From: Bacillota bacterium
Lineage (GTDB): Bacteria; Bacillota; Sulfobacillia; JAJZIM01
Length of the DNA stretch: 64,000 nucleotides
Direction of reading: 5' to 3'
Assembly: GCA_021810565.1 (NCBI GenBank)
Contig: JAJZIM010000003.1
Coordinates: 8,911 to 72,910, forward strand
Both the position numbers and the translations under genes were made by a program. The notes beneath the pieces are model-generated. The model was not told the origin of the DNA, did no database searches, and worked only from the letters and a program-made list of their open reading frames with translations. Shown here piece by piece: positions 1 through 57,196 of this stretch (positions within the stretch are counted from its first letter, which is position 1; each line of letters begins with the position of its first letter).

Positions 1-2649
1 GAGCAGGCGACGGTGTGGAACGCCTTCAACCAGATCCAGACTTACAAGAACGACATTCCATCCCTGTTTGCGTACAACGAGGTTTTGGTGATATCCGACG
101 GCCTGGAGGCGCGCGTCGGCTCCCTCACGGCCGACCGGGAGCGCTTCATGCCCTGGCGCACCATCGAGGGCGAGGACCTGGCGCCGCCGGGCCTGCCGCA
201 ATTGCAGGTGGTGATCCAGGGGGTTTTCGAGCGGAGCCGCTTCCTCGATCTGCTGAGGCATTTCATCGTATTCGAGACGGACGGGCCGGACGTCAGCAAG
301 AAGCTTGCCGGCTACCACCAGTTCCACGCCGTGAACCGGGCGGTGGAGGAGACGATCCGCGCGGCGCGGCTCCGTGCTGGGTACGGCATGGCGGCCGAGC
401 GTGAACCTGCGTACGAGGCGGGGGCCCGCATCGGCAGCGAGGCCGGAGACCGGCGCATCGGGGTGGTGTGGCACACCCAGGGGTCGGGCAAGAGCCTGAC
501 CATGGCCTTCTACGCCGGCAAGGTGGTGCAGCACCCGGCCATGGCGAACCCGACCATCGTGGTGCTCACCGACCGCAACGACTTGGACAGCCAACTATTC
601 GACAGCTTCGCCCTGGATCAGGAGCTCTTGCGGCAGGCGCCGGTGCGGGCGGAGAGCCGGGAGCACCTGCGCGTGCTCTTGCGGGTGGCTTCGGGCGGCG
701 TGGTGTTCACCACCATCCAGAAGTTCTTCCCGGAGGAGAAGGGGGCCCACCTGGCGGCGCTGTCCGAGCGGCGCAATATCGTGGTGATGGCCGACGAGGC
801 GCACCGGAGCCAGTACGACTTCATCGACGGGTTCGCCAGGCACATGCGTGACGCCCTGCCCAACGCCTCCTTCATCGGCTTCACCGGAACGCCCATCGAG
901 CTTGCCGACCGGAACACCCGTGCCGTCTTTGGCGACTACATCAGCGTGTACGATGTCCAGCGCGCCCAGGAGGACCATTTCACGGTGCCCATCTACTACG
1001 AGAGCCGCCTGGCGCAGTTGGCGCTGAGGGAGGAGGAGAAGCCGCGGGTGGACCGGGAGTTCGAGGAGGTTACGGAGCAGCAGGAGGAGACGGCCAAGGA
1101 GCGGCTGAAGAGCAGGTGGGCCGCCCTGGAGGCGCTGGTCGGCACCGACAAGCGCATAGACATGGTGACCCGGGACCTGGTGGAGCACTTCGAGCGGCGA
1201 TTGGAGGCCATGGACGGCAAGGCGATGGTGGTCTGCATGAGCCGGCGCATCTGTGTGCAGCTCTATGACGCCATCATGCGGCTGCGGCCGGAGTGGCACG
1301 ACGACGACGACCGCAGAGGCGTCGTCAAGGTGGTCATGACCGGCTCCGCCGACGATGCTGCGGAGTGGCAGCGGCACATCCGCAACAAGAAGCGGCGCGA
1401 GGAGTTGGCGAAGCGGTTCAAGGATTCGGAGGACCCCTTCAAGCTGGTTATCGTGCGGGACATGTGGCTCACCGGCTTCGATGCTCCGTGCCTGCACACC
1501 ATGTACGTGGACAAGCCCATGCGGGGCCACAACCTGATGCAGGCCATCGCCCGGGTAAACCGGGTGTTCCGGGACAAGCCCGGCGGCTTGGTGGTGGACT
1601 ACCTGGGGCTCGCCCCGCAACTGCAGGAGGCGGTGGCCGACTACACGGCGAGCGGCGGCAGGGGCAAGGCTGTGGTGAACCAGCAGGAAGCCGTGGCGAT
1701 CATGTTGGAACGGTACGAGGTCTGCCGGGACATGTTCCACGGCTTCGACTACTCAGGTTTCCTGACCGGCATGCCGGTGCAACGGCTGTCCATCCTGCCT
1801 GGTGCCCAGGAGCACATCCTGGCGCAGGAGAACGGCAGGGAGCGCTTCTTGACGGCGGTGTCCGCCCTGACCAAGGCGTTCGCCCTGGCGGTGCCGGAAG
1901 CGGCGACACTTCGCATCCGTGACGAGGTGGGCTTCTTCCAGACGGTGCGTGCGGCGTTGGCGAAGACGACCCGCGGCGCCGGCGCCGAGGAGGAGATGGA
2001 GCACGCCATCCGGCAGATCGTCTCGGGCGCGTTGGTTTCGGACAAGGTCATCGATGTCTTCGCCGCGGCGGGGCTCAAGAAGCCGGACATCTCGGTGCTG
2101 TCGGACGAATTCCTGGCCGAGGTGCGTGGCATGACACAGAAGAACCTGGCGGTGGAGCTTCTGCGGAAGCTTCTGAACGACGAGATCAGGATTCGCTCGC
2201 GCAAATTCCTGGTGCAGTCCCGCTCCTTCGCCGACAAGCTGGAGCAGGCCGTGCGGGCGTACCACAACCGGGCCATCAGTTCCGCCCAGGTGATCGAGGA
2301 GTTGGTGGCCATCGCGAAGGAGATGAGCGAGGCCAGGACAAGGGGCGAGAAGCTGTTCCTGAGCGACGACGAGCTGGCCTTCTACGATGCCCTGGAGGTC
2401 AACGACAGCGCGGTGAAGGTGCTGGGTGACGAGACGCTGCGGGCCATAGCCCGGGAACTGGTGGATACGGTGCGGCGGAACGTGACCATCGACTGGGCGG
2501 TGAAGCAGAGCGTGAAAGCCCGGCTGCGGGTCTTGACGAAGCGGATCCTGCGCAGGTACGGCTACCCGCCGGACAAGCAGGAGAAGGCCACGAAGACGGT
2601 GCTGGACCAGGCGGAGCTTCTGAGCGGGGAATGGATGCCTACCGAGTAA
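1..2649 (+). CDS. hsdR: Type I restriction enzyme R subunit (HsdR), 5'-truncated by window edge
   Basis: ORF 13..2649 has no upstream stop, so it continues off the window. Helicase motifs '[17 protein letters not shown]' (Walker A) and '[10 protein letters not shown]' (DEAH). C-terminal DUF3387-like tail '[32 protein letters not shown]'. Confidence 0.9.
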
Positions 2650-2673
2650 TGCCGGCAGAAGGGGGGCCAGCAA

Positions 2674-4830
2674 GTGAGGATCACCGGGATCCATGCGAGC
2701 AACTTTCTTTCCTTTGCTCCCGACAAGGAGGACGGCGGGCCGGGTGGCCTGCATCTGACAGGGCTTGTCCGCCCGCTCACCATCCTGGTCGGTCCGAATG
2801 GCGCGGGGAAAAGCAACGTGCTGCGCGTTGTGGAAATGATGATGGGTTTCTTGAAGGACAGACAACTGGACCAGGAAAGACTTGCGGAACTCAAAAGACT
2901 CTATCATCGGAATGCGAATTGTAGTCACATAGCCCTGAATCTTGATGTGATTTTTGATCGGCCAGAGGAGAGGGATCTGTTCGTACTCTTCTTCAGGAAT
3001 TTGTTGGTCGGACCGAGCAGCAAGACGACAAGCAATGCTTTTGGAGAACCAGGCCCAGCTGGAAAAGCCCTTATTCCAGACCGACTGGCGTCTCTTCAAG
3101 AACGGTTGAGCAATGATGTGGAAGAAAAAGATATAGAAGTATTATTTCAGGGACAGTTCAGATTGGAGGTCGATATTCGCAATCCACATAGTGATAGTTT
3201 AGCATTTATATGCCAAAACAGTCATGTGCCGCTTAGAGTGGACATACACCATCGTTATTGGGCAGGAATGATACGCTTACCTGCATCTGCGACCGAGGGT
3301 GCGGTTGAGAGACCGCTTCTTGAAGCTTGGATTATGGCTATTGACGCCAGCTGCCGGGAAAAGCTGGGGGAATATTTGACGGAGGAAACCGAAGTAAACA
3401 TGCCGGCTATTCCGCGATTTAGCTTCGCCAATCTAACAGCAAGCACGGGGATAATGCCTGTTCTATTGAACATCCAATTAGAGCAGCCTCAGCGTGTTTT
3501 GCCGATACGCATGGAGCTCAATCAACGATTGGGTAGAGAACCGACAAACACTGATTGGATGGGTTTAACCGAAGTATTTCGACGCTTGGTTCAGGGACAA
3601 GTGGTTTGCATAGATAACTGGTTTGTTGTTGACAAACCAGAACTCCCCGGTGCTGAAGATAGCCAAACGCTCTCAAGTGTACTATTATCTGAAGGAAATT
3701 TAGCAAGGTATCTGTTTGGGCTGAAGAACTCCCCCGACAAATCAGAGCGTGAGCTTTTAAAAGGCATGTTGGAAGATTATCGTGATTTAACTGGATCGCA
3801 GATTGACGCTGTTATGCACCATATACCAAGTAAACAGGTAATACGTCAACACAATCAAAAACCAGAAGTAGAACCCGGCAAGTATGTTATTTCGCTGATC
3901 ACTGATGAGGATATACCTCTCCGCTACAGCGGCTCGGGCAGGGCCCAAGCGGCCATGCTTTGCGCCCTGGCCCACCAGCACCAAGGGCGCGTGTTGATCC
4001 TGGATGAGCCCGAGACATTTCTTCATCCGACGCTGCAGTCCGTTTTTGCAGACCGCTTTATGAAGGGTGATGCTCAGTATATCGTCATAACACACTCGTC
4101 CAATATCATTCCAGCAGGCAAATTGGAAGTGGTCCGCCGTGTGTACAGCAAGCATGACAATGATTGGAGAATGTCCGAGATAACCCCCGCCATCGACGAT
4201 GACAAGTCCAAAGAACTCGCACTACGAAAGCGCGTCAGAAGGCCGGAGGAAGCTGCCTTTCTGTTTTCGAGATGCACGGTGTTTGTGGAGGGACCTAATG
4301 AGGCGGCCGCATTGCCGGTATGGTTTGATACATGGATAAAGGAAAAAGTCCATCTGAGCGCTGAAGCGTGCGGAGTTGTGTTTCAAGCTGCGAATGGCAA
4401 GAATGGCATTCTGCCGCTTCTTAAGATAGCAGACCTATTTGTAGTCAACTCCATTCCCCTATATGACGCTGATGTTTTAGGAACCGACAAGAAAGGAGAG
4501 AACGCAAATATTCTGAGGGGGTGGCAGGATTATGGCTTAATTTGCAGCAACGGAGGAAAGGTTGAGTTAGGTAAGGGGGCTTCGATAGCGCTATTCCCGA
4601 AGTGTACAAAATACCGAATATTTCTATGCGGCAAAAAGTTGACGGATGATTTTGAAAAACTGCCCGTTTGCAAGGACCACATTGAGGAGGCCAACAAAGA
4701 AACCGGTGGAGGCCCGTTGGCATACCGGTACATCGCGGAACATTATCCATGCCCCGATGAATTTGTGCCGCTGTTTGACAAAGCACTGGAGCTGGCAATG
4801 GATGCCCCTGGCCGGAGAATGGACAAGTAA
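2674..4830 (+). CDS. OLD-family ABC ATPase + Toprim nuclease (class-1 OLD or fused AriA/AriB PARIS-like)
   Basis: GTG start 24 nt after hsdR stop, preceded by GAAGGGGGG. Walker A 'ILVGPNGAGKSN', 'YSGSGRAQAAM', Walker B 'VLILDEPETFLHP', 'IVITHS'. C-terminal Toprim-like 'TVFVEGPNEAAALP' and 'LYDADVLGTD'. Middle of the gene is visibly AT-richer. Confidence 0.8.
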   Translation: MRITGIHASNFLSFAPDKEDGGPGGLHLTGLVRPLTILVGPNGAGKSNVLRVVEMMMGFLKDRQLDQERLAELKRLYHRNANCSHIALNLDVIFDRPEERDLFVLFFRNLLVGPSSKTTSNAFGEPGPAGKALIPDRLASLQERLSNDVEEKDIEVLFQGQFRLEVDIRNPHSDSLAFICQNSHVPLRVDIHHRYWAGMIRLPASATEGAVERPLLEAWIMAIDASCREKLGEYLTEETEVNMPAIPRFSFANLTASTGIMPVLLNIQLEQPQRVLPIRMELNQRLGREPTNTDWMGLTEVFRRLVQGQVVCIDNWFVVDKPELPGAEDSQTLSSVLLSEGNLARYLFGLKNSPDKSERELLKGMLEDYRDLTGSQIDAVMHHIPSKQVIRQHNQKPEVEPGKYVISLITDEDIPLRYSGSGRAQAAMLCALAHQHQGRVLILDEPETFLHPTLQSVFADRFMKGDAQYIVITHSSNIIPAGKLEVVRRVYSKHDNDWRMSEITPAIDDDKSKELALRKRVRRPEEAAFLFSRCTVFVEGPNEAAALPVWFDTWIKEKVHLSAEACGVVFQAANGKNGILPLLKIADLFVVNSIPLYDADVLGTDKKGENANILRGWQDYGLICSNGGKVELGKGASIALFPKCTKYRIFLCGKKLTDDFEKLPVCKDHIEEANKETGGGPLAYRYIAEHYPCPDEFVPLFDKALELAMDAPGRRMDK

Positions 4831-4875
4831 CGTGGAGTAGGTAAGAGAGGTGGTTCGCGGCCACGCAGATATGGG

Positions 4876-5109
4876 GTGTCTTCCTCGGAAGGCGGCCCTC
4901 CATTTGCGGGAGTGGTGCCGATGAGCCGCGATATCCTGGAGGCCGTGGAGACCCGCCTGGTGCTCGACTGGCACCGCAAGCGGGACCTTCAGCGGGACAT
5001 CCGCTCCGCCGTGAAGCACAGGCTGACGGACGCCGGCTGCCCGAGGGACAAACTTTCGCCCCTTGCCGATGAGATCATGAACCTGGCCCTCCGCCGGATC
5101 AAAGGGTGA
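4876..5109 (+). CDS. small ORF resembling an HsdR C-terminal (DUF3387-like) segment; possible gene remnant
   Basis: 'RLVLDWHRKRDLQRDIRSAVKHRLTDAGCPRDKLSPLADEIMNLALRR' parallels the hsdR tail '[43 protein letters not shown]'. It overlaps the DUF45 gene by 11 nt. Confidence 0.3.
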   Translation: MSSSEGGPPFAGVVPMSRDILEAVETRLVLDWHRKRDLQRDIRSAVKHRLTDAGCPRDKLSPLADEIMNLALRRIKG

Positions 5110-5803
5110 GGAACGGCCCGTTGCGCCGCAGCCAGTCCCGGCGCTGCTTTTGGTCCGGCAGCACGCACTCCACGGCATGCCAGAAGTCTTGGGAATGGGC
5201 CCGCACCTTGAGGTGGCAAAGCTCATGCACCACCAGGTAGTCCACCACGGACAGGGGGACCATGATGATGCGCCAGTTGAGGTAGATGGCCCCGTCACGG
5301 GCGCAGCTCCCCCAGCGCCGCTCCTGATGTTTGACCACCACGCGGGAGGGGGCGACGCCCATCCTGGCTGAGTAGAGGTCCACCCGCTCCGGCAGCCGCT
5401 CCCTGGCGCGTTCCTCGAACCACTTGACGAGAGCCGCCCGCACAGCGGATGCGTCGTCTTTTCCCGGCAGGGTGACGATGATCCGGTCTCCGCGCAGGGC
5501 GACCGACAACCTGTCGTCCTCCCGCACCTTCAGCCGATAGCGCCTGCCCAGGTAGGGGAACGACTCCCCGCTGACGAACTCCTTGGGTGCGGGTTGCGGT
5601 GCCGGCGGCGCCTCGCGCAGTTTGCGGATGATCCACGGCGCCTTGCGCAGAAGAATGCCTTCCAGCGCGGCGGAGGAAACCCCCTGCGGGGCGGCTACGA
5701 TCACCCCCCTGGCCGGCTCCACGGTGATGGATACCGTGGAGCGGCGGGGGCTCAGCCTGAGATCGTAGGCGATGGTCCTGGAGCCGAAGGACAGGACGGG
5801 CAT
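5099..5803 (-). CDS. DUF45/YgjP-like HExxH zinc metallopeptidase (M48-related), a common Type I R-M neighbour
   Basis: 'VVDYLVVHELCHLKVRAHSQDFW' HExxH motif. RBS GGAGGTG 5 nt upstream of the ATG. 234 aa. Confidence 0.8.
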   Translation of the reverse strand: MPVLSFGSRTIAYDLRLSPRRSTVSITVEPARGVIVAAPQGVSSAALEGILLRKAPWIIRKLREAPPAPQPAPKEFVSGESFPYLGRRYRLKVREDDRLSVALRGDRIIVTLPGKDDASAVRAALVKWFEERARERLPERVDLYSARMGVAPSRVVVKHQERRWGSCARDGAIYLNWRIIMVPLSVVDYLVVHELCHLKVRAHSQDFWHAVECVLPDQKQRRDWLRRNGPFLTL

Positions 5804-5943
5804 TGGAGCACCTCCACCGATACAGGTTCTACGCTGAGACGCAAATTCCTAGGCGGGTTCGGCCGGGATGGCGAAGGCGGCGGGTAGACCAGGGACTGCC
5901 CCGGGAGGAGTGTTGCCGCGTTGACGCAGGGACTGGCGCCTAC

Positions 5944-7014
5944 ATGAAAGCACCATCGGTAAACGGCGGCGAAGACCGCTCAAAGTGGCTCTTCGGTTTC
6001 CTAGGCGGCCTGATCGGCGGCATCGGCGCCGTGGCTGTCGCCGTCGTCCTGACGCCATATCTTCGCGGAACCACGGGCGCGGCGACTACCGGAGGGGCTG
6101 CGGGACTGGTGGCGGCAGTCTTCGGCGGGCTTGCCGCGCTGCTCGCGGTGGGCATAGCGGTGGTGGTGGCGATCCAGTGGATATTTTTAGACGAACGCGT
6201 CAAGGTAGCGATAACACGGCAGTCGGAGAAAATTGCCAGGGATATGGATGCGAAGGTGAATAGCGCAGTGCGTGGTATGGGAGAGTTCGTGTTGGCTTGG
6301 CAAGGTTTAGTACAGACGGAATGGGATGAATCTGGAATAAAAAAAGCGCTACAGCATTATCCACCCATTCCAAACGCCGCGGCTTTAACGGCTATGCATT
6401 TCATAAAGTTGGCTTATGACTACAAGAGACACATAAAGCAAGTCCAAAAGGGACAATATGCAGAAATTGCAACGAACTTAGCTGAATACTGGGCGGACGA
6501 AGCCATTCACTCGGTGGACAGCCACGATCCCGGGTATCCCGAGTATGTCAAGGCCTGTGTCCTGTCGCTGCGCAAAGAGCCTACGTCGGCAATGAACTAC
6601 CTGCGCCAAGCATTCAAGAAAAATCCCGGCTACACGGAGGAAATCATGTCTGACGAAGAATTATGGAACATAATTTTCGGCATGACACGTGGGGAGCAGG
6701 ACATAATAAAGCGCGTACTATCGCTATTCCGGCTGGAGCTACCAATAGACTCGGAGATACGCAATCACGCGGAGAACAGGGATCAGATGCAACGCTCGTA
6801 TTACTATGCCGTAAATAAGGAGACGGGCGATTCAGGAACAATATATATAGAGGGGATTCCTTCCGCAAACAAGTGGTCATATTTGGGATTCACTATTGAT
6901 GACCAATATAATAGCGACAATGTTGACGAGGTGTTGTCATATGCTTCAGATAAGTACATTATCACGAGAATAAAGCCGCACGAGGAATATGCCGCTCTGC
7001 ATTACGGCAAATAA
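5944..7014 (+). CDS. membrane-anchored protein of unknown function (two Gly/Ala-rich TM helices + AT-rich C-terminal domain)
   Basis: Internal ATG 'MKAPSVNGGEDRSKWLFGFLGGLIGGIGAVAVAVVLTPYL...GLVAAVFGGLAALLAVGIAVVVAIQWIF', followed by a ~270 aa hydrophilic domain encoded by AT-rich DNA. I recognised no family motif. Confidence 0.55.
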   Translation: MKAPSVNGGEDRSKWLFGFLGGLIGGIGAVAVAVVLTPYLRGTTGAATTGGAAGLVAAVFGGLAALLAVGIAVVVAIQWIFLDERVKVAITRQSEKIARDMDAKVNSAVRGMGEFVLAWQGLVQTEWDESGIKKALQHYPPIPNAAALTAMHFIKLAYDYKRHIKQVQKGQYAEIATNLAEYWADEAIHSVDSHDPGYPEYVKACVLSLRKEPTSAMNYLRQAFKKNPGYTEEIMSDEELWNIIFGMTRGEQDIIKRVLSLFRLELPIDSEIRNHAENRDQMQRSYYYAVNKETGDSGTIYIEGIPSANKWSYLGFTIDDQYNSDNVDEVLSYASDKYIITRIKPHEEYAALHYGK

Positions 7015-7164
7015 GGCGCAGGGGATCAGGCTCACGAATCGCTTGCCCCAAGCGGCACGCATGGATTCTGTACTTCACAAGGGCCAACGTGCTGCAAGGT
7101 GCCATGTCCTTACTGGAGCAGGAGGGCAGGCCTTCAATGGGCGTGTTCACGGCGCCGCCGGGCG

Positions 7165-8472
7165 TTAACGCGACGCCCTGAACACCCCCGTCCAGACACC
7201 CATGCCCGCCGGCATGGTGACGGGCGCGCCGTCCACCGTCAGGCCGGCGGCAGCCGGGGCGCCGAGCTTCAGGTAGAGTTGGCCCGTGGACTTCCAGGTG
7301 GAGATGTTCCCGGGATACCGCATTCCCGCGAACAGCGTGGTTCCGTTGCTGGCGACGTCTACCCAGCACTGCCCGGTGAAGCTGACCGTGGCGGCCACGC
7401 TCCCGGCGGAAACGTCGTAGTCGTAGACGCCGTTCGACGCGGACACGAGGCGCACCGCGGGAGCCTTCGGCGGCGCGGCCGTGGTCGGGTGCCCCGGCCT
7501 GTCCATGATTACGACGACGGCGACCGGCACCAGGACCACGATGGCGACGATGGGCAGTGCTCCCCGCAGGCGGGAAGGGACATGATGCGCGGGCGCGGCC
7601 GCCGGGACGGACGGTGTTGCGGTGGGTGGCGGGGGAGGGGGCGCCGCGGGCGATGGCGGCGCGGCCGCAGCCGGCGCGCCCGCGCGTCGTTCCGGGGGGA
7701 GCACGAAGCGCCGGAACACGTCGGCCAACTGTTCCGGCGTGACCCCGGCCGGCAGGACGCCCGGCGTGTTCTGGATGACCAGGGGCGCAACGTCGGCCTT
7801 CACCACGGGCGCGGCGTCCTGCCCATCGATCACGGCGGCCTTGTGGGCCATGGCCACCAGGGCGTGGACCGGAACCTGGGCGAAGCCGCGCTGGTCCAGC
7901 ACGCGGCGGACGACATCCGCGTTGCGCAGCGCCTGCGCCACGCCGCTTGCCGTGCCCTCCACCACGCCGCGCTTCTCCCGCGACCATCCGGCGGGGGAGA
8001 CGCGGATGCGCCCAGCCCAGTTCTTCACCTCCACCACGTGCACGCCGTTGGGCCCGAAGACCAGGGCGTCGATCTCCACGCCGACGGGCCCCGCGTGGAC
8101 GATGCTGGCCGGCAGCGTGACGAATTCCCGCGGCAGGAAAGAGAGGTGGTGCAGCGTCTCCTCTTCGCCCTGCCGCCTTGGCGGCAATTTCGGACTGTTC
8201 CGGAGTTTCAATGATTGTGCCGGCTGACGGTTCAGAAAACCACCTGTGGCCGCAACGGAGACACGTCCACTGCTTGGGATCGACGAACAGATAGCATTGT
8301 TTTTGTCGTGCCAACTCAACCACGGTACGCCTGGTATTTGTACTTCCGCATGCTGGGCAGGCAATATCTTGATATTGCAGATGACCTCCAGCGGATTCAT
8401 TGACTTCCCTGGAAATCCACTGCAGGCGATGGCGGATCCAATAGCAGGGCAAACCATAATCCGCCGCTCCAT
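7165..8472 (-). CDS. NERD-domain protein with central TM segment and RodZ-C/DUF4115-like C-terminus
   Basis: 'VGVEIDALVFGPNGVHVVEVKNWAGRIRV' is a NERD core. Pro-rich linker, TM 'LPIVAIVVLVPVAVVVIM', and C-terminal 'VSFTGQCWVDVASNGTTLFAGM'. Start is uncertain (M at 8472 or 8400). Cys pairs lie near the N-terminus. Confidence 0.65.
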   Translation of the reverse strand: MERRIMVCPAIGSAIACSGFPGKSMNPLEVICNIKILPAQHAEVQIPGVPWLSWHDKNNAICSSIPSSGRVSVAATGGFLNRQPAQSLKLRNSPKLPPRRQGEEETLHHLSFLPREFVTLPASIVHAGPVGVEIDALVFGPNGVHVVEVKNWAGRIRVSPAGWSREKRGVVEGTASGVAQALRNADVVRRVLDQRGFAQVPVHALVAMAHKAAVIDGQDAAPVVKADVAPLVIQNTPGVLPAGVTPEQLADVFRRFVLPPERRAGAPAAAAPPSPAAPPPPPPTATPSVPAAAPAHHVPSRLRGALPIVAIVVLVPVAVVVIMDRPGHPTTAAPPKAPAVRLVSASNGVYDYDVSAGSVAATVSFTGQCWVDVASNGTTLFAGMRYPGNISTWKSTGQLYLKLGAPAAAGLTVDGAPVTMPAGMGVWTGVFRASR

Positions 8473-8710
8473 CGGCCACGCCCGGTCCCCGTCCGCCACG
8501 GAACCCCCGGTTTCGCTTCCCGGCCAAAAAGACGCCGTCTCCGCAAGGAGGCGGCATCTTTTTTCACTGGGGTCTCTTTCGCCGTGATCCGGTCGTTCAA
8601 CCCACCTCCCGTTTCCCGGCGCCGGGAAAAGCAACGGCCAGATCCGCGGCGCCGCAAGTTGCCTCTCCTGCGGCCACCGCGACGCTCCGGCGCCAGGAGG
8701 AGGTGTTCCT

Positions 8711-8926
8711 ATGCCGCAAGAAAAGCCCCCGTCCCTGGCGGAAGCTCCCGAGTTCCTGCGGATCGAGGAGGCCGCGGCGATCCTGCGGGTGAGCCGCAGC
8801 ACGGTCCACGCGGCGGTGCGCCGGGGCATGATCCCCGTCGTCGACTTCGGCCGCAAGCTGCGCATCCCGCGCCTTGCCCTGGAGCGCATGGCCGGGTTGC
8901 ACCGCGACGGCAAGGAGGTGGACTGA
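8711..8926 (+). CDS. excisionase-family HTH DNA-binding protein
   Basis: 'LRIEEAAAILRVSRSTVHAAVRRGMIPVVDFGRKLRIP' is an HTH_17/Xis-like motif. Confidence 0.7.
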   Translation: MPQEKPPSLAEAPEFLRIEEAAAILRVSRSTVHAAVRRGMIPVVDFGRKLRIPRLALERMAGLHRDGKEVD

Positions 8927-8927
8927 G

Positions 8928-9245
8928 GTGCCGATCGGCAACAAAACGTACCGGCGGTTCCTGGCGGAAACCGATCCCGAAGCGTTGGCGCGGCTTGACG
9001 CCGGGCGGTGCGTCAACTGCGGCATGCCCGTCACGCCGGATCATTTCCGCGGCTGGCCGGAGGTGTTCGCCCGCGAGTACCCCATCAGCGGCCTCTGCCC
9101 CGCCTGCCAGGTGGACGTGTTCGCGCCCGCGCCCGACGAGGAGTGCCGGTGGCGGACCACACCGGGCTTCTGCGCCCGGTGCGCCGCGATCCGGGGCTTC
9201 GACCCCGCGGACTGCCCCTCCCGGCGGGAGGGCGATCCCCGATGA
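8928..9245 (+). CDS. Cys-rich hypothetical protein (mobile-element passenger)
   Basis: GTG 2 nt after the previous stop. Motifs 'CVNCGMPVT', 'CPACQ' and 'CARCAA' suggest zinc-ribbon-like CxxC pairs. Its end overlaps the next ATG (ATGA). Confidence 0.45.
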   Translation: MPIGNKTYRRFLAETDPEALARLDAGRCVNCGMPVTPDHFRGWPEVFAREYPISGLCPACQVDVFAPAPDEECRWRTTPGFCARCAAIRGFDPADCPSRREGDPR

Positions 9246-9580
9246 CGCCGCGATTGGAGGACCTGCCCGACGTGCTGACCGTGCGGGAGGTGGCCGACGT
9301 CCTGCGGGTTAGCCAGTCCACGGTCTACGAGCTGGTGCGCCGCCGGCGGCTGCGCGCCGTCCGGTGCGGCATCGGCCGGCAGGGGGGCGTGCGCATCACG
9401 CAGTCCGTCCTGCGGGAGTACCTGGGACTGCCCATACCCCCGCGCACGGCGGCGGACGCGGCGGCCGCCGATCGCGGCAAGCTGGTGTTCCTGCCGACCC
9501 GCGGGGAGGAGCCGCCGGGCGCCGCGGCGAAGTCTCCCGGCAGCCGAAGCCCCGCCCGGCCGGGGAGGGGAAGCCGGTGA
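9242..9580 (+). CDS. excisionase-family HTH (HTH_17) DNA-binding protein
   Basis: 'LTVREVADVLRVSQSTVYELVRRRRLRAVRCG'. Confidence 0.7.
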   Translation: MTPRLEDLPDVLTVREVADVLRVSQSTVYELVRRRRLRAVRCGIGRQGGVRITQSVLREYLGLPIPPRTAADAAAADRGKLVFLPTRGEEPPGAAAKSPGSRSPARPGRGSR

Positions 9581-10692
9581 GGGGAACGATCCGAAAGGTT
9601 CCGGGAAAGCGGGGCGTCAGCTATGAGGTGAGGCTGGACTACCCCAGAGGCCCCGACGGGAGGCGCCGCCAGGCGTGCCGCCGTTATAAAGGACGGCGCG
9701 AGGCGGAGGACGCCCTGGCGCACATGCTGGCGGAGGCGCGGGACGGCGTGCCGATCGCCACGGAGCGGCTGACGGTGAACCAATACCTGGATCAATACCT
9801 GGAGGCCGTGCGGGGAACCGTGCGGGAGTCCACCCTGCGGGGCAAGCGGCGGATGCTGTCCTATTGGCGGCCGTTGCTTGGCGCCGCGCCCCTGGCGAAA
9901 CTGCGCCCGATGGACGTGCAGCGCGCGGTCGGCGCCCTGCCGGAGCGGCTTGCCATGGCGACGCGCACGGAGGCGTTCCGCGTCCTGCGCACGGCGCTTC
10001 GCCAGGCGGTCCGCTGGGGCATGCTGGCGCGGGACCCCACCGACGGCGTGCGGCCGCCGAAGGGCCCCGTGCGGGAGATGCGCGTGTGGTCGAGGGACGA
10101 GGCGGCCGCCTTCCTCCGGAGCGCGAAGGGGCGCAGGCTGTACCCCCTCTTCGCGCTGGCGCTGGCCACCGGGATGCGGGAGGGCGAACTGCTGGCCCTG
10201 CGATGGGACGACGTGGACCTGGCGGCGCGGGAGGTGTCCGTGCTGCACACCCTGCACTACCCGGACGCCGGCCCGTGGAGCCTGGCGGAACTCAAGACGC
10301 GAAGCAGCCGCCGCAAGGTGGCCGTGAGCCGGGAGGTGGCGGACATGCTTCGCGCCTGGCGCAGGCGCCAGAACGCCGAGCGGCTGGCGGCGGGCCCGGC
10401 GTGGGAGGACGACGGCCTGGTCTTCTGCGGGCCCCGGGGGCGCCCCCTGCGGCCTTCCGACGCCATCCACGCCTTCCACCGCGCGGCCAAGGCGGCCGGC
10501 CTGCCGCGCATCCGGTTCCACGACCTGCGGCACACCCACGCGACCGACCTCCTGGCGCGGGGCGTTCCCGCGCCGGAGGTGGCGGCGCGGCTGGGACACT
10601 CCAACCCAGCCGTCACCATGAGGGTCTACGCCCACGCCACCGCCGAGACGCGCGACGCCGCGGTGCGCGCCCTGGACGGACTCCCGTGGTAG
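9577..10692 (+). CDS. tyrosine-type site-specific recombinase (phage integrase family)
   Basis: GTG after GGGGAGGGGA. Catalytic region 'RFHDLRHTHATDLLARG' and 'VTMRVYAHAT' (R..H..R..Y). N-terminal SAM-like core-binding domain. Confidence 0.85.
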   Translation: MRGTIRKVPGKRGVSYEVRLDYPRGPDGRRRQACRRYKGRREAEDALAHMLAEARDGVPIATERLTVNQYLDQYLEAVRGTVRESTLRGKRRMLSYWRPLLGAAPLAKLRPMDVQRAVGALPERLAMATRTEAFRVLRTALRQAVRWGMLARDPTDGVRPPKGPVREMRVWSRDEAAAFLRSAKGRRLYPLFALALATGMREGELLALRWDDVDLAAREVSVLHTLHYPDAGPWSLAELKTRSSRRKVAVSREVADMLRAWRRRQNAERLAAGPAWEDDGLVFCGPRGRPLRPSDAIHAFHRAAKAAGLPRIRFHDLRHTHATDLLARGVPAPEVAARLGHSNPAVTMRVYAHATAETRDAAVRALDGLPW

Positions 10693-10828
10693 CCGATTGA
10701 GGGAGAATACCTCCGCCCATACGGCCGCGAAGCCCCGCGCCGCCGGCGTCCGCGGCCGCCGAAACGCGCCGCGCGTGACAATGCGTGATAGAATGAGGGA
10801 GTTTTTCCAGAACGGTTCCACCGGGGAG

Positions 10829-12880
10829 TCAAGAAACCCAGTCCCCGTGCGGCTTTGTCGGCACCCGCTCCACCTGCACCAGGTTGGTGTGGAAGGTGGC
10901 GCCGCCGCCCAGGTCCGCCAGGGCGTCGGAGGTGGTGGCGTTGCAGCTCCGCCCCTCGGGGTGGGTTCCCAGGTGCCAGCCGCCGGGGCTCACGGCCACC
11001 CCGGGGCGGGTGTGGTCGCCCACCCGGGCCGTGGCCCGGAAGGCGCCGCGGTCGTTGTGGATCCGGATCGCGTCGCCGTCGGCGATGCCGCGCGCCGCCG
11101 CGTCGGCGGGATGCAGGAAGACGTGGGGCGTCCCTTCCCTTTCCCGCGCCCACGGGAGCTCCCCGTAGGTGGAGTTCAGGAAATGGTGGGCGGCGGGAGT
11201 CACCAGGTGCAGCGGATAGCGCTGGTGCAGGGCGGGGGATCCCTCCCGGCTCTCCGCCGGCGGCGCCCAGTCCGGCACCTGGGCGAGGTCCACCCGGCCG
11301 TCGGGGGTGGCGAAGCCGTCCCGAAAGGGGACGTGGGGGCGCTGGGGCGTGTTCAGGCGCACCCAGTATTCCCGGCGCAGCCGCTCCAGGGTGACGCCCG
11401 CGAGGAAGGGGTGTCCCGAGGACAGGGCCTGCTCCGCCAGGTCCCAGTCGGAGTCGGCGAAGGCGTCCTCGGTGAAGCCCATGGCCCGCGCCAGGAGGCG
11501 GAAGGCCTCGGTGTTGGGCTTGGCCTCGCCCCGGGGGGCGATGCACGGCTGGTTGAGTCCCAGGTACAGGTGCCAGTAGGAGGTGTGCAGGTCCAGGTGC
11601 TCCAGCTGGGTGGTGGCCGGCAGCAGCACGTCGGCGAAGCGTCCCGTGTCGCTGACCCACTGGTCGTGGACCACCATGAACAGGTCCTCCCGGGACAGCC
11701 CCGCCAAGACCAGGTTCTGGTGGGGAGCCACCACCGCCGGGTTGGCGTTGTACACGTGCAGGGCCCGCACCGGGGGCGAGGCCTGGGTGAGGGCCTCCCC
11801 CAGGCGGTTCATGTTGATGCTGCGCACCGGCCCCGGGGCCAGCTCGGGCCGCTCCAGGAGCGCCGTGTTCAAGGGGAAGGCGCCGGAGTTGGACAAAAGC
11901 AGGCCGCCGCCCGGATCCCGCCACGCCCCCGTCAGGGCGGGCAAGAGGCTGATGGCGCGCACGGCGGCGCCGCCGTGGGTGTGCCGCTGCACGCCGTAGC
12001 CCAGGCGGACCAGGGCGGGGCGGGTGTGGGCCCATAGGCGGGCCAGCTCGCGGATGTCCGCCGCGTCCAGCCCGCACCGCTCGGCGCAGCGCTCCACCGG
12101 GTGGGCGGCCAGGTGCCGGGCGAGCGCCTCCCGGCCGCGGGTGTGGCGGGCCAGGTAGTCCCGATCCTCCCAGCCCCGGTCCAATATCTCCCGCATGATC
12201 CCCAGGGCCAAGGCCACGTCGGTGCCGGGCAGCGGCGCCAGGTGCCAGTCGGAGCGGCGGGCGCCGGCGTGGCGGTAGGGGTCGATGGTCACCAGCAGGG
12301 CGCCGCCTTTTTGCGCCTCGCGGGCGGCGAGCCAGCCGTGCAGGTTGGTGGAGAAGGGGTTTTGGCCCCAGAAGACGATGAGGCGGTTGTCCGCCATGGC
12401 TTCTGGGTCGGCTCCCTGGCGCGTGCCCAGCACCCGGTTCAAGGCCTGCGAGCCGGCGGCAGAGCAGATGGTACGCTCCAGGCGGGAGGCGCCCAGGCGG
12501 TGGAAGAAGCGCCGGTCCATGCCGGCGGACTGCAAAACGCCGTGGGTACCGTAATAGCTGTAGGGGAGGATGGCCGCGGGGCCGTCTTGGGCCGCGATCC
12601 GCCGGTAGCGCCGGGAGATGAGCTCCAGGGCCTCTTCCCAGGAGGCCTCCCGGAACTCACCGGCGCCCTTGGGGCCGGTGCGGATGCGCGGGGTCAAAAG
12701 CCGCTGGGGTCCGTAGACCCGATCCAGGTAGCGGCGCACCTTGGCGCAGACCACGCCCCGGGTGACGGGGTGGTCGGGATCCCCCTCGATCCGGACGGCG
12801 CGGCCGTCGGACACCTCCACCCGCAGGGCGCAGGCATCCCAGCAGTCGTGGGGGCACACGGCGCTCAGGTGGCTGGTCAA
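10829..12880 (-). CDS. molybdopterin oxidoreductase (MopB superfamily; formate dehydrogenase/anaerobic dehydrogenase-like)
   Basis: N-terminal 4Fe-4S motif 'CPHDCWDAC'. 683 aa. MopB-like blocks throughout. Confidence 0.8.
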   Translation of the reverse strand: MTSHLSAVCPHDCWDACALRVEVSDGRAVRIEGDPDHPVTRGVVCAKVRRYLDRVYGPQRLLTPRIRTGPKGAGEFREASWEEALELISRRYRRIAAQDGPAAILPYSYYGTHGVLQSAGMDRRFFHRLGASRLERTICSAAGSQALNRVLGTRQGADPEAMADNRLIVFWGQNPFSTNLHGWLAAREAQKGGALLVTIDPYRHAGARRSDWHLAPLPGTDVALALGIMREILDRGWEDRDYLARHTRGREALARHLAAHPVERCAERCGLDAADIRELARLWAHTRPALVRLGYGVQRHTHGGAAVRAISLLPALTGAWRDPGGGLLLSNSGAFPLNTALLERPELAPGPVRSINMNRLGEALTQASPPVRALHVYNANPAVVAPHQNLVLAGLSREDLFMVVHDQWVSDTGRFADVLLPATTQLEHLDLHTSYWHLYLGLNQPCIAPRGEAKPNTEAFRLLARAMGFTEDAFADSDWDLAEQALSSGHPFLAGVTLERLRREYWVRLNTPQRPHVPFRDGFATPDGRVDLAQVPDWAPPAESREGSPALHQRYPLHLVTPAAHHFLNSTYGELPWAREREGTPHVFLHPADAAARGIADGDAIRIHNDRGAFRATARVGDHTRPGVAVSPGGWHLGTHPEGRSCNATTSDALADLGGGATFHTNLVQVERVPTKPHGDWVS

Positions 12881-13049
12881 CGGCTCACCTCCCGTCGCGC
12901 CCGGTCGCCGGGATCATTTCCCGGCGGCGGTCCCGATTTGTCGGCCCGAGCCCATTCTATCCCATGCCGATGGTGGGGACAAGCGGCTTGACAAGGGTCG
13001 CCTGCCGTGATATTTTAATCCCTGAAACTTTCAAAGGGAGAAATGTTCC

Positions 13050-56925: not shown

Positions 56926-57196
56926 CTCGTTTCGACCTCCTCGCGGGTCCGCCGCGACGGTCGCAGGGCCCGGCAACCGGCTGTCCTGGCCGCGCCGCGG
57001 CTTTAGACCCATGGCTTTGCGTCCCCGCCTTTCGGCGGGTTTGCCCTTGGCAGGCTCACCTGATATTTCGTGCGCGACCGGCGAATTTGGGTGGGTGGCG
57101 CCGGGACGGTCGAAATCCGATCTTGACAAAAACCGCGGCGCAGGGCAGAATAAGCGGTAGCATACCGCGTAGGGTATATGAAGGAGGATTCTCGGG

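What the first reader, a model, noticed from the sequence alone, without database searches (positions are those of the whole stretch)
7165..8472. Membrane-tethered NERD-domain protein with RodZ-like C-terminal domain
A clear NERD nuclease-related core 'GVEIDALVFGPNGVHVVEVKNWAGRIRV' is followed by a Pro/Ala-rich linker ('AAPPSPAAPPPPPPTATPSVPAAAPA'). Then comes one TM helix and a C-terminal beta-rich domain, 'SFTGQCWVDVASNGTTLFAGM...LKLGAPAAAGLTVDG', that resembles RodZ-C/DUF4115. The N-terminus contains Cys pairs (C-x6-C ... C-x29-C) within an AT-rich stretch (~8160-8420), possibly a zinc ribbon. A NERD domain on the cytoplasmic side with a RodZ-like extracytoplasmic domain is an unusual topology for a putative nuclease. 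It lies next to the xis/int module.
Basis: partly seen in the sequence, partly recalled or inferred. Interest (0 to 1): 0.55.

Follow-up and report, generated by a model that had tools for sequence, protein, structure and literature searches.

The report
NERD nuclease fused to RodZ anchor
A Thermaerobacter mobile island carries a one-of-a-kind gene that joins a cytoplasmic NERD-type nuclease domain to the membrane anchor and outer domain of the cell-shape protein RodZ, but where the gene starts is unresolved and its function is only inferred.

Summary
The core observation holds. The minus-strand ORF ending at 7165 encodes, in order:
- a NERD domain (Pfam E=1.7e-13) with an intact E79/D111/E124/K126 nuclease tetrad;
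- a 45-residue Pro/Ala linker;
- one TM helix;
- a RodZ_C beta domain (E=3.3e-11).

AlphaFold models both folded domains confidently.

NERD homology and native codon usage begin only at 8175. Upstream lies a 52% GC segment. In another frame it encodes a canonical CPxCG...CxxCG zinc ribbon, which is out of frame with NERD.

Membrane tethering is common among the closest NERD relatives, usually through an N-terminal TM. The RodZ_C fusion is not common. Among 1.84 billion representative proteins, no listed hit matched both halves.

The host is a Thermaerobacter MAG. The gene is the only occupant of a variable cargo slot between a conserved xis/int module and a backbone gene. The island also carries type I R-M and an OLD nuclease.

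Best reading: a membrane-tethered nuclease placed at the cell-wall elongation machinery by a RodZ-derived anchor, probably defensive cargo. A SmdA-like morphogenetic role and a non-functional chimera remain live rivals.

The parts
7165..8400 (-). ORF as called in public assemblies (P0001, 411 aa, ATG at 8400, TAA at 7165-7167). Only the part from 8175 downward is supported as coding in this frame.
7696..8178 (-). NERD / PD-(D/E)xK nuclease module, residues 75-235. The Pfam match covers 7849-8175. It includes a C-terminal helical extension shared with relatives.
   Evidence: Pfam E=1.7e-13. 37-42% identity to P0002-P0009. AlphaFold pLDDT 94.6. Foldseek top hits are all PD-(D/E)xK nucleases, but weak.
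8023..8166 (-). Span holding the catalytic tetrad codons: E79 (8164-8166), D111 (8068-8070), E124 (8029-8031), K126 (8023-8025).
   Evidence: E79, D111 and K126 are invariant and E124 is nearly invariant in alignment A1. The 32/13/2 spacing equals that of ZwsA E535/D567/E580/K582. Coordinates.
7561..7698 (-). Pro/Ala-rich cytoplasmic linker, residues 235-280 (about 15 Pro and 13 Ala), ending in the basic juxtamembrane stretch SRLRG.
   Evidence: RodZ relatives align from residue 245 onward.
7504..7560 (-). Single transmembrane helix, residues 281-299.
   Evidence: Kyte-Doolittle 19-mer mean of 3.09. It lies within the region aligned to canonical RodZ P0027.
7456..7503 (-). Short Pro-rich extracytoplasmic linker, residues 300-315.
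7168..7455 (-). Extracytoplasmic all-beta RodZ_C domain, residues 316-411. The Pfam core is 7207-7389.
   Evidence: Pfam E=3.3e-11. Invariant CW, G, G columns in A3. AlphaFold pLDDT 96-98. 37% identity to RodZ P0027.
8176..8445 (-). Low-GC (52-53%) 5' segment with no frame-B GC3 signal. Two reading frames are open across it.
8234..8362 (-). Zinc-ribbon coding potential in a different frame (frame A): ACPACGS...x29...CLRCGHRWFS. It is out of frame with NERD.
   Evidence: Pfam DUF7340 E=1.2e-5, 25.4 bits against a cutoff of 27. Several Zn-ribbon models match in NCBIfam. CPxCG..CxxCG occurred in 0 of 20,000 shuffles. Coordinates.
8385..8389 (-). GGAGG, the only strong Shine-Dalgarno-like site in the low-GC 5' segment. 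It precedes the frame-A CTG at 8380, not an ATG/GTG/TTG. A second strong site lies further upstream, before the frame-B GTG at 8499.
   Evidence: -10.0 kcal/mol here, against -5.0 for ATG 8400, -3.5 for TTG 8187 and -9.3 for GTG 8499
8156..8176 (-). Frame junction. Frame A reads AAGRRGD (GGG-CGA-AGA-GGA, with rare Arg codons). Frame B reads RQGEEET, which is the NERD GE.ET motif. A +1 shift is needed to pass from A to B.
6982..8508 (.). Variable cargo slot of the island family. This gene is its only occupant here. Related Thermaerobacter islands carry about 7 kb of unrelated genes in the same place.
8534..8555 (.). Hairpin with T-runs on both sides, conserved in the island backbone, between the cargo slot and xis.

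Best explanation
**What is shown.** The gene encodes a bitopic membrane protein. Its cytoplasmic part is a NERD-family PD-(D/E)xK nuclease domain with the complete E-D-ExK catalytic tetrad. A 45-residue Pro/Ala linker and one TM helix connect it to an extracytoplasmic RodZ_C beta domain.

The protein is a chimera of two recognisable parents:
- A clade of small NERD proteins, about half of which carry one or more TM helices before the domain (a 37% identical member occurs in Thermaerobacter itself).
- The linker-TM-RodZ_C part of RodZ, here lacking RodZ's MreB-binding HTH.

It is the sole gene in a swappable cargo slot of an integrase-borne island. That island also carries type I R-M and an OLD-family nuclease.

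**What is inferred.**
- The RodZ-derived TM and outer domain hold the nuclease at the inner face of the membrane, at or near the cell-wall elongation machinery. RodZ's periplasmic part contacts that machinery in E. coli.
- There the nuclease cuts foreign DNA or RNA as it enters or replicates. Alternatively it is switched on when the envelope is disturbed.
- Under this reading it is a single-gene defence or exclusion cargo.
- Translation most likely starts in the NERD frame (GTG 8499, ATG 8400 or TTG 8187). The out-of-frame zinc ribbon is most likely a recombination remnant.
For: **Domains.** Pfam NERD and RodZ_C are both above gathering. AlphaFold gives pLDDT 94.6 for the NERD module and 96-98 for the beta domain.

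**Active site.** E79, D111 and K126 are invariant and E124 nearly invariant among 20 relatives. Their 32/13/2 spacing is identical to the residues whose mutation impaired ZwsA defence; the K582A protein served as the inactive control in the RNA-cleavage assay. Foldseek top hits are all PD-(D/E)xK nucleases: Bax1, AF1548, R.BspD6I, Can2, R2 endonuclease, Hjc and McrC.

**Coherent gene body.** Frame-B GC3 is 0.8-0.97 from 8175 to the stop, across both halves.

**Clean domain-boundary fusion.** NERD relatives align to residues 75-235, RodZ relatives to 245-409. The latter include a canonical HTH_25-TM-RodZ_C protein that sits next to cell-wall genes.

**Membrane association is a trait of the clade.** 46 of 99 NERD hits have one or more TM helices before the domain, and 7 have a TM after it.

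**Not an assembly artefact.** An identical 1601-nt stretch occurs in NCBI, JGI and Logan assemblies, and 13 contigs carry the gene.

**Context.**
- hsdMSR, an OLD nuclease and a YgjP-like gene, with xis/int adjacent.
- The slot holds different cargo in sister islands.
- NERD domains occur in PglW, MAD6 and MkoA.
- The Thermaerobacter relative P0006 sits next to a VWA-PP2C-kinase module and CRISPR-associated-type genes.

**RodZ biology.** RodZ's periplasmic part interacts with elongasome components (PMC13584716).
Against: - No activity, expression or phenotype data exist.
- The architecture is a singleton, so there is no evolutionary evidence that selection maintains it.
- The 5' end is irregular: weak Shine-Dalgarno sites for ATG 8400 and TTG 8187, a low-GC patch, and an out-of-frame zinc ribbon.
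- Two widely conserved NERD histidines are replaced: DH is DA at A112 and RH is RN at N160.
- The RodZ beta domain is dispensable for RodZ function in S. pneumoniae. Its binding partner is not established, so localisation through RodZ_C is an assumption.
- Genomic contexts of several small membrane-NERD relatives are housekeeping-like or uninformative.
- Foldseek matches are weak (E>=1e-3, TM<=0.42).
Confidence: 0.45

Rival explanations
1. Morphogenetic or scaffold role, like S. aureus SmdA. The NERD domain would act not as a defence nuclease but as a cytoplasmic interaction module of the cell-wall synthesis machinery. The island-borne protein would then be a RodZ-like accessory or competitor that modulates elongasome activity of the host rod.
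For: - SmdA is a membrane-anchored protein with a cytoplasmic NERD-like domain. It binds PBP1, PBP2 and PBP3 through its TM and EzrA through its cytoplasmic part, and it controls morphology (PMC9040797).
- The C-terminal half here is clearly RodZ-derived.
- RodZ's outer part contacts elongasome components.
- Some membrane-NERD relatives sit in housekeeping contexts, for example next to FtsK.
- Two conserved NERD histidines are lost.
Against: - The full E-D-ExK tetrad is retained, whereas SmdA lacks several of the most conserved NERD residues.
- The gene is a singleton cargo in a swappable slot of a defence-rich mobile island, not a conserved chromosomal gene.
- The MreB-binding HTH of RodZ is absent.
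- Homology to SmdA itself could not be tested.
Confidence: 0.2
2. Non-functional evolutionary accident. A recent illegitimate recombination or frameshift produced a chimeric, 5'-damaged gene that is not made into a working protein. One route is a former Zn-ribbon-NERD fusion broken by a 1-nt insertion in the GGG run at 8168-8170. Another is a 5'-truncated NERD gene abutting a foreign fragment.
For: - The architecture and the protein are singletons. The 90% identity cluster has one member and there is no relative with both halves.
- Composition breaks sharply at 8175-8190, coinciding with the frame change and with the first residues of the NERD domain.
- A statistically non-random zinc ribbon with its own GGAGG lies in the wrong frame.
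- Frame A upstream of the junction (EIAAKAAGRRG) resembles the A..AG..GE lead-in of relatives better than frame B does (KLPPRRQ).
- The annotated start has a weak Shine-Dalgarno site, in a genome where 13 of 17 neighbouring genes have strong ones.
Against: - Both folded domains are complete, begin and end at domain boundaries, keep the catalytic residues, and show uniform native codon usage with no internal stops or frameshifts over 1 kb.
- Frame B stays open across the 270-nt low-GC patch, which happens in only 1.7% of synonymous resamplings. This leaves usable in-frame starts, including GTG 8499 with a -9.3 kcal/mol Shine-Dalgarno site.
- None of the 149 listed relatives (the best of 333 hits) has an N-terminal zinc ribbon.
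Confidence: 0.25
3. Frameshift-dependent expression. Ribosomes start at the strong GGAGG site in frame A, translate the zinc ribbon, and shift +1 at GGG-CGA. The P-site Gly tRNA slips onto GGC while the rare CGA and AGA codons stall the A site. The product would be a Zn-ribbon-NERD-TM-RodZ_C protein.
For: - The strong Shine-Dalgarno site in the low-GC segment serves frame A.
- The junction in frame A is GGG followed by the two rarest Arg codons of this genome, CGA at 2.8% and AGA at 1.4%. A purine-rich GAGGAG sequence lies at the site.
- The zinc ribbon is non-random.
Against: - There is no canonical start codon after the Shine-Dalgarno site, only CTG at 8380.
- The unshifted frame has no nearby stop and would yield more than 450 residues of nonsense down to 6962, unlike known programmed +1 sites.
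- There are no homologues in which to test conservation of the site.
- No Rfam frameshift element reaches significance.
Confidence: 0.05

Closest known systems
Small membrane-anchored NERD proteins (uncharacterised; e.g. P0002-P0009, including Thermaerobacter P0006)
   Same: 37-42% identity across the whole NERD module including its C-terminal helices. They share the motifs GE.ET..HL.FLP, EIDh.v.GP.G, E.KNw.G.I, GW and AQ. About half of the NERD relatives carry one or more TM helices before the domain.
   Different: Where a TM anchor is present it usually lies N-terminal to the domain, followed by a basic stretch. They have no extracytoplasmic domain of RodZ type. Here the anchor is C-terminal and RodZ-derived, and the N-terminal anchor is absent.
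RodZ (cytoskeleton/elongasome protein; HTH_25 - TM - RodZ_C)
   Same: The layout is the same from the juxtamembrane linker onward: Pro/Ala-rich linker, single TM, Pro-rich outer linker, RodZ_C beta domain. It is 36-37% identical to a canonical RodZ (P0027) over about 165 residues, down to the C-terminal FRA motif.
   Different: RodZ's defining MreB-binding HTH is replaced by a nuclease domain. The score is far below the NCBIfam RodZ cutoff, 27 against 208 bits. The gene is on a mobile island rather than in a cell-wall gene neighbourhood.
SmdA of Staphylococcus aureus (PMC9040797)
   Same: [quoted passage not shown]
   Different: SmdA's TM is N-terminal, it has no outer domain, it lacks several of the most conserved NERD residues, and it is a conserved chromosomal gene reported as essential in transposon studies. 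Sequence relatedness to this protein was not testable here.
NERD domains of defence proteins: ZwsA (RNA endonuclease), PglW (BREX/Pgl kinase), MAD6 (MADS), MkoA (Mokosh)
   Same: Domain-level similarity: MAD6 model E=9.5e-13, PglW 4e-6. The catalytic spacing is identical to ZwsA. The gene sits in a defence-island setting.
   Different: Those are large soluble multidomain proteins with kinase, helicase or RNA-binding modules. All scores here are far below the family cutoffs. None has a TM or RodZ_C.

Membership tests
NERD (PF08378), PD-(D/E)xK superfamily | Match to the family profile above the curated threshold | tested here: met
   51.5 bits against a gathering score of 22.1, E=1.7e-13, profile positions 3-110 of 111
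NERD (PF08378), PD-(D/E)xK superfamily | Catalytic E ... D ... E-x-K residues | tested here: met
   E79, D111, E124 and K126. E79, D111 and K126 are invariant and E124 nearly invariant in A1. The spacing equals ZwsA E535/D567/E580/K582. The conserved His after D and the His of the RH motif are replaced (A112, N160).
NERD (PF08378), PD-(D/E)xK superfamily | Restriction-endonuclease-like alpha/beta fold | tested here: inconclusive
   The model is confident (pLDDT 94.6). The best PDB matches are all PD-(D/E)xK nucleases but are weak (best E=1.2e-3, TM<=0.42). There is no sequence match to any solved structure.
NERD (PF08378), PD-(D/E)xK superfamily | Nuclease activity | not testable with these tools
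   Needs biochemistry
RodZ | N-terminal cytoplasmic HTH (HTH_25/XRE type) that binds MreB | tested here: not met
   There is no HTH family hit in any candidate N-terminus. NERD occupies that position. Only 12 of 44 RodZ_C relatives have HTH_25.
RodZ | Single TM with N-in/C-out topology | tested here: inconclusive
   There is one hydrophobic helix at 281-299, with no signal peptide or other TM. The flanks carry +2 (SRLRG) and a net +1, which is only weak positive-inside support. Topology is inferred mainly from homology to RodZ across the TM.
RodZ | C-terminal RodZ_C / DUF4115 domain (PF13464) | tested here: met
   43.4 bits against 23.9, E=3.3e-11. Invariant CW, G, G columns with 44 relatives. 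The beta domain has pLDDT 96-98. Foldseek against the PDB was uninformative.
RodZ | Whole-protein equivalog score (NCBIfam NF008109 / NF041534) | tested here: not met
   27.4 bits against a cutoff of 208
SmdA-like membrane NERD morphology determinants | N-terminal TM followed by a cytoplasmic NERD-like domain; sequence homology to SmdA | not tested
The layout differs, because the TM here is C-terminal to NERD.
Zinc ribbon DUF7340 (PF24029) as N-terminal domain of this protein | Profile match above threshold and in frame with the rest of the protein | tested here: not met
   25.4 bits against a cutoff of 27, and it lies in a frame offset by one base from NERD. There are no homologues. None of the 149 listed relatives has an N-terminal CxxC..CxxC.
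Known anti-phage systems (PADLOC-DB 2.0) | Match to a defence-protein model over most of its length | tested here: not met
   Only domain-level hits to the N-terminal NERD of PglW (22.8 bits) and MkoA (13 bits)

The most novel reading that the evidence does not exclude
The fusion is a functional 'Rosetta stone'. It would indicate that the widespread small membrane-anchored NERD proteins work at the peptidoglycan elongation or division machinery, as SmdA does in S. aureus. In this island the RodZ-type outer domain would serve as an envelope-side docking or sensing module. That module would position or trigger a cytoplasmic nuclease against incoming nucleic acid, giving a single-protein, envelope-coupled defence nuclease.
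Probability: 0.15. Interest if true: 0.75.

Novelty: new variant of a known kind. Interest (0 to 1): 0.42.

Why it matters
NERD is a very common but poorly understood nuclease-like domain. The only experimental handles found here are SmdA (cell-wall and division phenotypes) and ZwsA (an anti-RNA-phage endonuclease). A natural fusion of an apparently active NERD domain to the membrane and outer half of an elongasome protein gives a concrete, testable link between those two strands. The questions it raises are whether membrane NERD proteins act at sites of wall synthesis, and whether RodZ_C can serve as a portable localisation or sensing module.

It also shows that one slot next to xis in Thermaerobacter islands exchanges cargo. 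That makes the slot a place to look for further single-gene defence candidates.

The significance is limited by the gene being a singleton in uncultured genomes with an unresolved 5' end.

Tried and rejected
1. **Word-indexed homology searches.** Searches with the full fusion, the N-terminal half and the zinc-ribbon peptide found only the protein itself or nothing. The Pro/Ala linker probably swamped the first search.
2. **Zinc-ribbon peptide against other collections.** tblastn against phage and plasmid collections gave no hit.
3. **Scans for relatives.** The genome contigs and viral-contig scans with P0001 found no close relative, and the locus itself is not in the species-representative set.
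4. **Mixed alignment A2.** MAFFT failed to place the RodZ hits on the RodZ_C region. I abandoned A2 and made separate alignments A1 and A3.
5. **Codon-usage likelihoods.** Models were trained on low-GC and high-GC island genes to decide between frames A and B in 8176-8445. The result was indecisive, -4.146 against -4.171 per codon.
6. **Sigma-70 promoter scan.** No minus-strand promoter lies upstream of the gene.
7. **Rfam at a permissive E-value over 8000-8800.** Only chance hits, including a sub-threshold 'frameshift site' at 20 bits against a cutoff of 40.
8. **Repeat search over 1-13000** for att-like or IS-like repeats around the junction. Only chance GC-rich matches.
9. **PDB comparisons.** Sequence search gave nothing. 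Foldseek of the C-terminal model returned only generic beta-sandwiches.
10. **A +1 slip at the UUU-C further downstream.** The product would lack three residues of the GE.ET..HL motif, so I rejected it. This is reasoning.
11. **Literature search for the assembly and run accessions.** Nothing found.
12. **tRNA scan for an attachment site.** None in the window.
Full report
**1. What is in the sequence**

On the minus strand, one frame (frame B) is open from 8913 to the TAA at 7165-7167. Public gene callers start it at the ATG at 8400, giving P0001 of 411 aa.

Pfam gives two matches well above gathering:
- NERD (PF08378): E=1.7e-13, 51.5 bits against 22.1, residues 76-184 of P0001.
- RodZ_C (PF13464): E=3.3e-11, 43.4 bits against 23.9, residues 338-398.

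Between them lie a 45-residue linker (about 15 Pro and 13 Ala) and one very hydrophobic helix at residues 281-299. The 1601 nt around the gene are identical in assemblies from NCBI, JGI and Logan, and 13 contigs carry the gene. The fusion is therefore not an assembly artefact.

**2. The two folded halves**

A search of 1.84 billion representative proteins gave 333 hits. Every listed hit matches either the NERD part (query residues about 75-235) or the RodZ part (about 245-409), never both. A local re-analysis confirmed this. The one two-stretch case, P0118, matches only the linker and TM, and Pfam finds no RodZ_C in it. None of the 44 RodZ_C relatives has NERD.

*NERD half.*
- The best NERD relatives (37-42% identity) are small proteins.
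- Of 99 NERD hits, 46 have a TM before the domain and 7 have one after it. Many of the closest ones show one or two N-terminal TM helices and a basic stretch before a C-terminal NERD module.
- In a 20-sequence alignment E79, D111, K126 and Q156 are invariant and E124 is nearly so.
- The E-D-E-K spacing of 32/13/2 is the same as E535/D567/E580/K582 of ZwsA. Substitutions at those four residues impaired ZwsA defence, and the K582A protein served as the inactive control in its RNA-cleavage assay (bioRxiv 10.64898/2026.04.06.716636).
- Two commonly conserved histidines are replaced (A112, N160).
- AlphaFold models the module at pLDDT 94.6.
- Foldseek finds only weak matches, but they are all PD-(D/E)xK nucleases. 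No solved structure matches by sequence.

*RodZ half.*
- It aligns from the linker through the TM to the last residues with canonical RodZ proteins. One example is P0027 (HTH_25-TM-RodZ_C), which is encoded next to a D,D-carboxypeptidase.
- Its beta domain (residues 316-411) is modelled at pLDDT 96-98.
- The PDB fold search for it was uninformative.

Frame-B GC3 is 0.8-0.97 across both halves. The body from 8175 to 7168 therefore behaves as one native-style coding region.

**3.

NERD homology begins at 8175, and the first helix of the model starts at residue 74. Immediately upstream, 8176-8445 is 52-53% GC with no frame-B periodicity.

*Frame A.* A different frame encodes ACPACGS-x29-CLRCGHRWFS, a canonical zinc ribbon.
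- It matches DUF7340 at E=1.2e-5, just below threshold, and several zinc-ribbon models in NCBIfam.
- CxxC...CxxC arises in 1.2% of dinucleotide shuffles, and CPxCG...CxxCG in none of 20,000.
- The only strong Shine-Dalgarno-like site inside the low-GC segment (GGAGG, 8385-8389) serves this frame, but it is followed by CTG rather than a canonical start.
- Frame A is one base out of register with NERD and has no stop until 6962.
- At the junction it reads GGG-CGA-AGA-GGA, with the two rarest Arg codons of this genome. Frame B reads the family motif GEEETLHHLSFLP.

*Both frames together.*
- Both frames are open across the low-GC patch. This is unusual: 0.25% of shuffles, or 1.7% given the frame-A peptide.
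- Codon-usage likelihoods cannot choose between them.
- None of the 149 listed relatives has an N-terminal zinc ribbon, and the ribbon itself has no detectable homologue.

*My conclusions.*
- The ribbon is or was coding, but it is not joined to NERD in the present sequence.
- The NERD-RodZ_C protein can be made only from a frame-B start: GTG 8499 (Shine-Dalgarno -9.3 kcal/mol), ATG 8472, 8457 or 8400 (-5 to -6), or TTG 8187 (-3.5). The alternative is a +1 shift.
- Which of these happens cannot be settled computationally.

**4. Host and genomic setting**

Neighbouring genes cluster at 90% identity or more with proteins named Thermaerobacter sp.. This is a high-GC Firmicute.

The gene lies between a divergent HTH_17 xis-like gene (8711-8926), itself followed by a tyrosine integrase (9364-10692), and a convergent TM/TPR_END protein gene (5803-7014). 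Further on are a YgjP-like metallopeptidase, an OLD-family nuclease and a type I R-M system.

Sister Thermaerobacter genomes show the following:
- They carry the same int/xis module at the same chromosomal site (93.8% identity, window 8694-12896).
- They share a short conserved hairpin segment (8509-8567).
- They have a homologue of the TM/TPR_END gene (72% identity, 6355-6981).
- Between these they hold about 7 kb of unrelated genes: a 639-aa protein, a double-AAA ATPase, and Fer4_12, DUF2997 and DUF1257 proteins.

The NERD-RodZ_C gene is thus the single occupant of a swappable cargo slot, about 6982-8508.

**5. How it most likely works**

*Shown.* A cytoplasmic NERD domain with a complete catalytic tetrad, a RodZ-type linker, TM and outer domain, and mobile defence-rich surroundings.

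*Inferred.*
- The topology is N-in/C-out. There is no signal peptide, there is a single TM, and the region is homologous to RodZ across the TM. Positive-inside support is only weak.
- The RodZ-derived part probably fixes the nuclease at the membrane, plausibly near the elongasome. RodZ's periplasmic part interacts with elongasome components (PMC13584716).
- The enzyme then acts on foreign nucleic acid at the membrane, or after envelope perturbation.

The fusion restores membrane anchoring, a feature of roughly half of its NERD relatives, by a different route. That is mild evidence that membrane location matters for this clade.

Against over-reading the anchor: the RodZ beta domain is dispensable in S. 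pneumoniae (PMC9804626), and its ligand is unknown.

**6. Rivals**

- *SmdA-like morphogenetic role.* S. aureus SmdA is a membrane NERD-like protein that binds PBPs and EzrA (PMC9040797). This makes a wall-synthesis role credible. The intact active site and the mobile singleton status argue against it.
- *Non-functional recent chimera or frameshifted gene.* The singleton status and the scarred 5' end support it. The clean domain boundaries, uniform codon usage and preserved frame-B openness argue against it.
- *Programmed +1 frameshifting.* It is mechanistically conceivable at GGG-CGA-AGA. It lacks a canonical start, a nearby zero-frame stop, and any conservation.

**7. Comparison and novelty**

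- It is a member of the NERD family: profile and catalytic residues are met, and the fold is consistent.
- It is not a RodZ: the HTH is absent and the equivalog score is not met. It carries a RodZ-derived C-terminal half.
- It matches no known defence system beyond domain-level similarity to the NERD modules of PglW, MAD6 and MkoA.
- Membrane-tethered NERD proteins are common. The RodZ_C fusion was not found anywhere else.

I rate it a new variant of a known kind. Interest is moderate: it is a neat, testable link between NERD and cell-wall machinery, tempered by singleton status and the unresolved start.

Noticed in passing
window 8234-8362 (minus strand, frame offset by one base from the NERD ORF); Shine-Dalgarno-like site at 8385-8389: An orphan zinc-ribbon coding remnant (CPACG-x29-CLRCG) with its own GGAGG sits inside a 52% GC patch. 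It is out of frame with the downstream gene and has no detectable homologue anywhere. Both this frame and the NERD frame stay open across the patch, which is statistically unusual.
   Followed up: yes
window 8534-8555 (conserved segment 8509-8567); L016 14149-14211: A GC-rich hairpin flanked by T-runs on both strands looks like a bidirectional terminator. It lies between the cargo slot and the divergent xis gene and is conserved (85.7%) in sister islands. It could be an insulator or an operator for the HTH_17 proteins.
   Followed up: partly
L016 14984-22070, L017, L019 (sister Thermaerobacter islands): The same int/xis backbone carries an alternative cargo in the slot. The cargo is a 639-aa protein with no Pfam hit, a 921-aa double-AAA ATPase, and Fer4_12, DUF2997 and DUF1257 proteins. 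It may be an uncharacterised multi-gene conflict system.
   Followed up: no
window 2674-4830 (+) and 4876-5109 (+): A low-GC (about 48%) OLD-family ATPase-TOPRIM nuclease gene lies directly after hsdR. It is followed by a 62-77 aa fragment matching the C-terminus of a type I restriction R subunit (T1RH-like_C). This suggests the OLD gene was inserted at, or displaced, an hsdR 3' end.
   Followed up: partly
window 5803-7014 (+): A membrane protein with N-terminal TM helices and an NCBIfam TPR_END_plus match (35.5 bits against a cutoff of 32). Its 5' part is about 66% GC and its 3' half about 48% GC. It is conserved at 72% in sister islands as backbone, and its function is unknown.
   Followed up: partly
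L006 280-8256 (Thermaerobacter MAG GCA_027420715.1): P0006, a 37% identical NERD relative from the same genus, heads a cluster of Cas_VVA1548, VWA, PP2C phosphatase, Ser/Thr kinase and Cas_NE0113 genes. This is a TerY-P-triad-like conflict module with CRISPR-associated-type proteins.
   Followed up: no
window 56969-57055 (-): A c-di-GMP-I riboswitch aptamer, 77.7 bits against a gathering score of 35.
   Followed up: no
window 8929-9246 (+), from L001 9156-9473 by the L001-to-window offset used here; between the two HTH_17 genes: A 105-aa ORF with no Pfam hit lies between two HTH_17 (xis-like) genes. It is 88 aa in sister islands, so it is part of the conserved recombination module.
   Followed up: no
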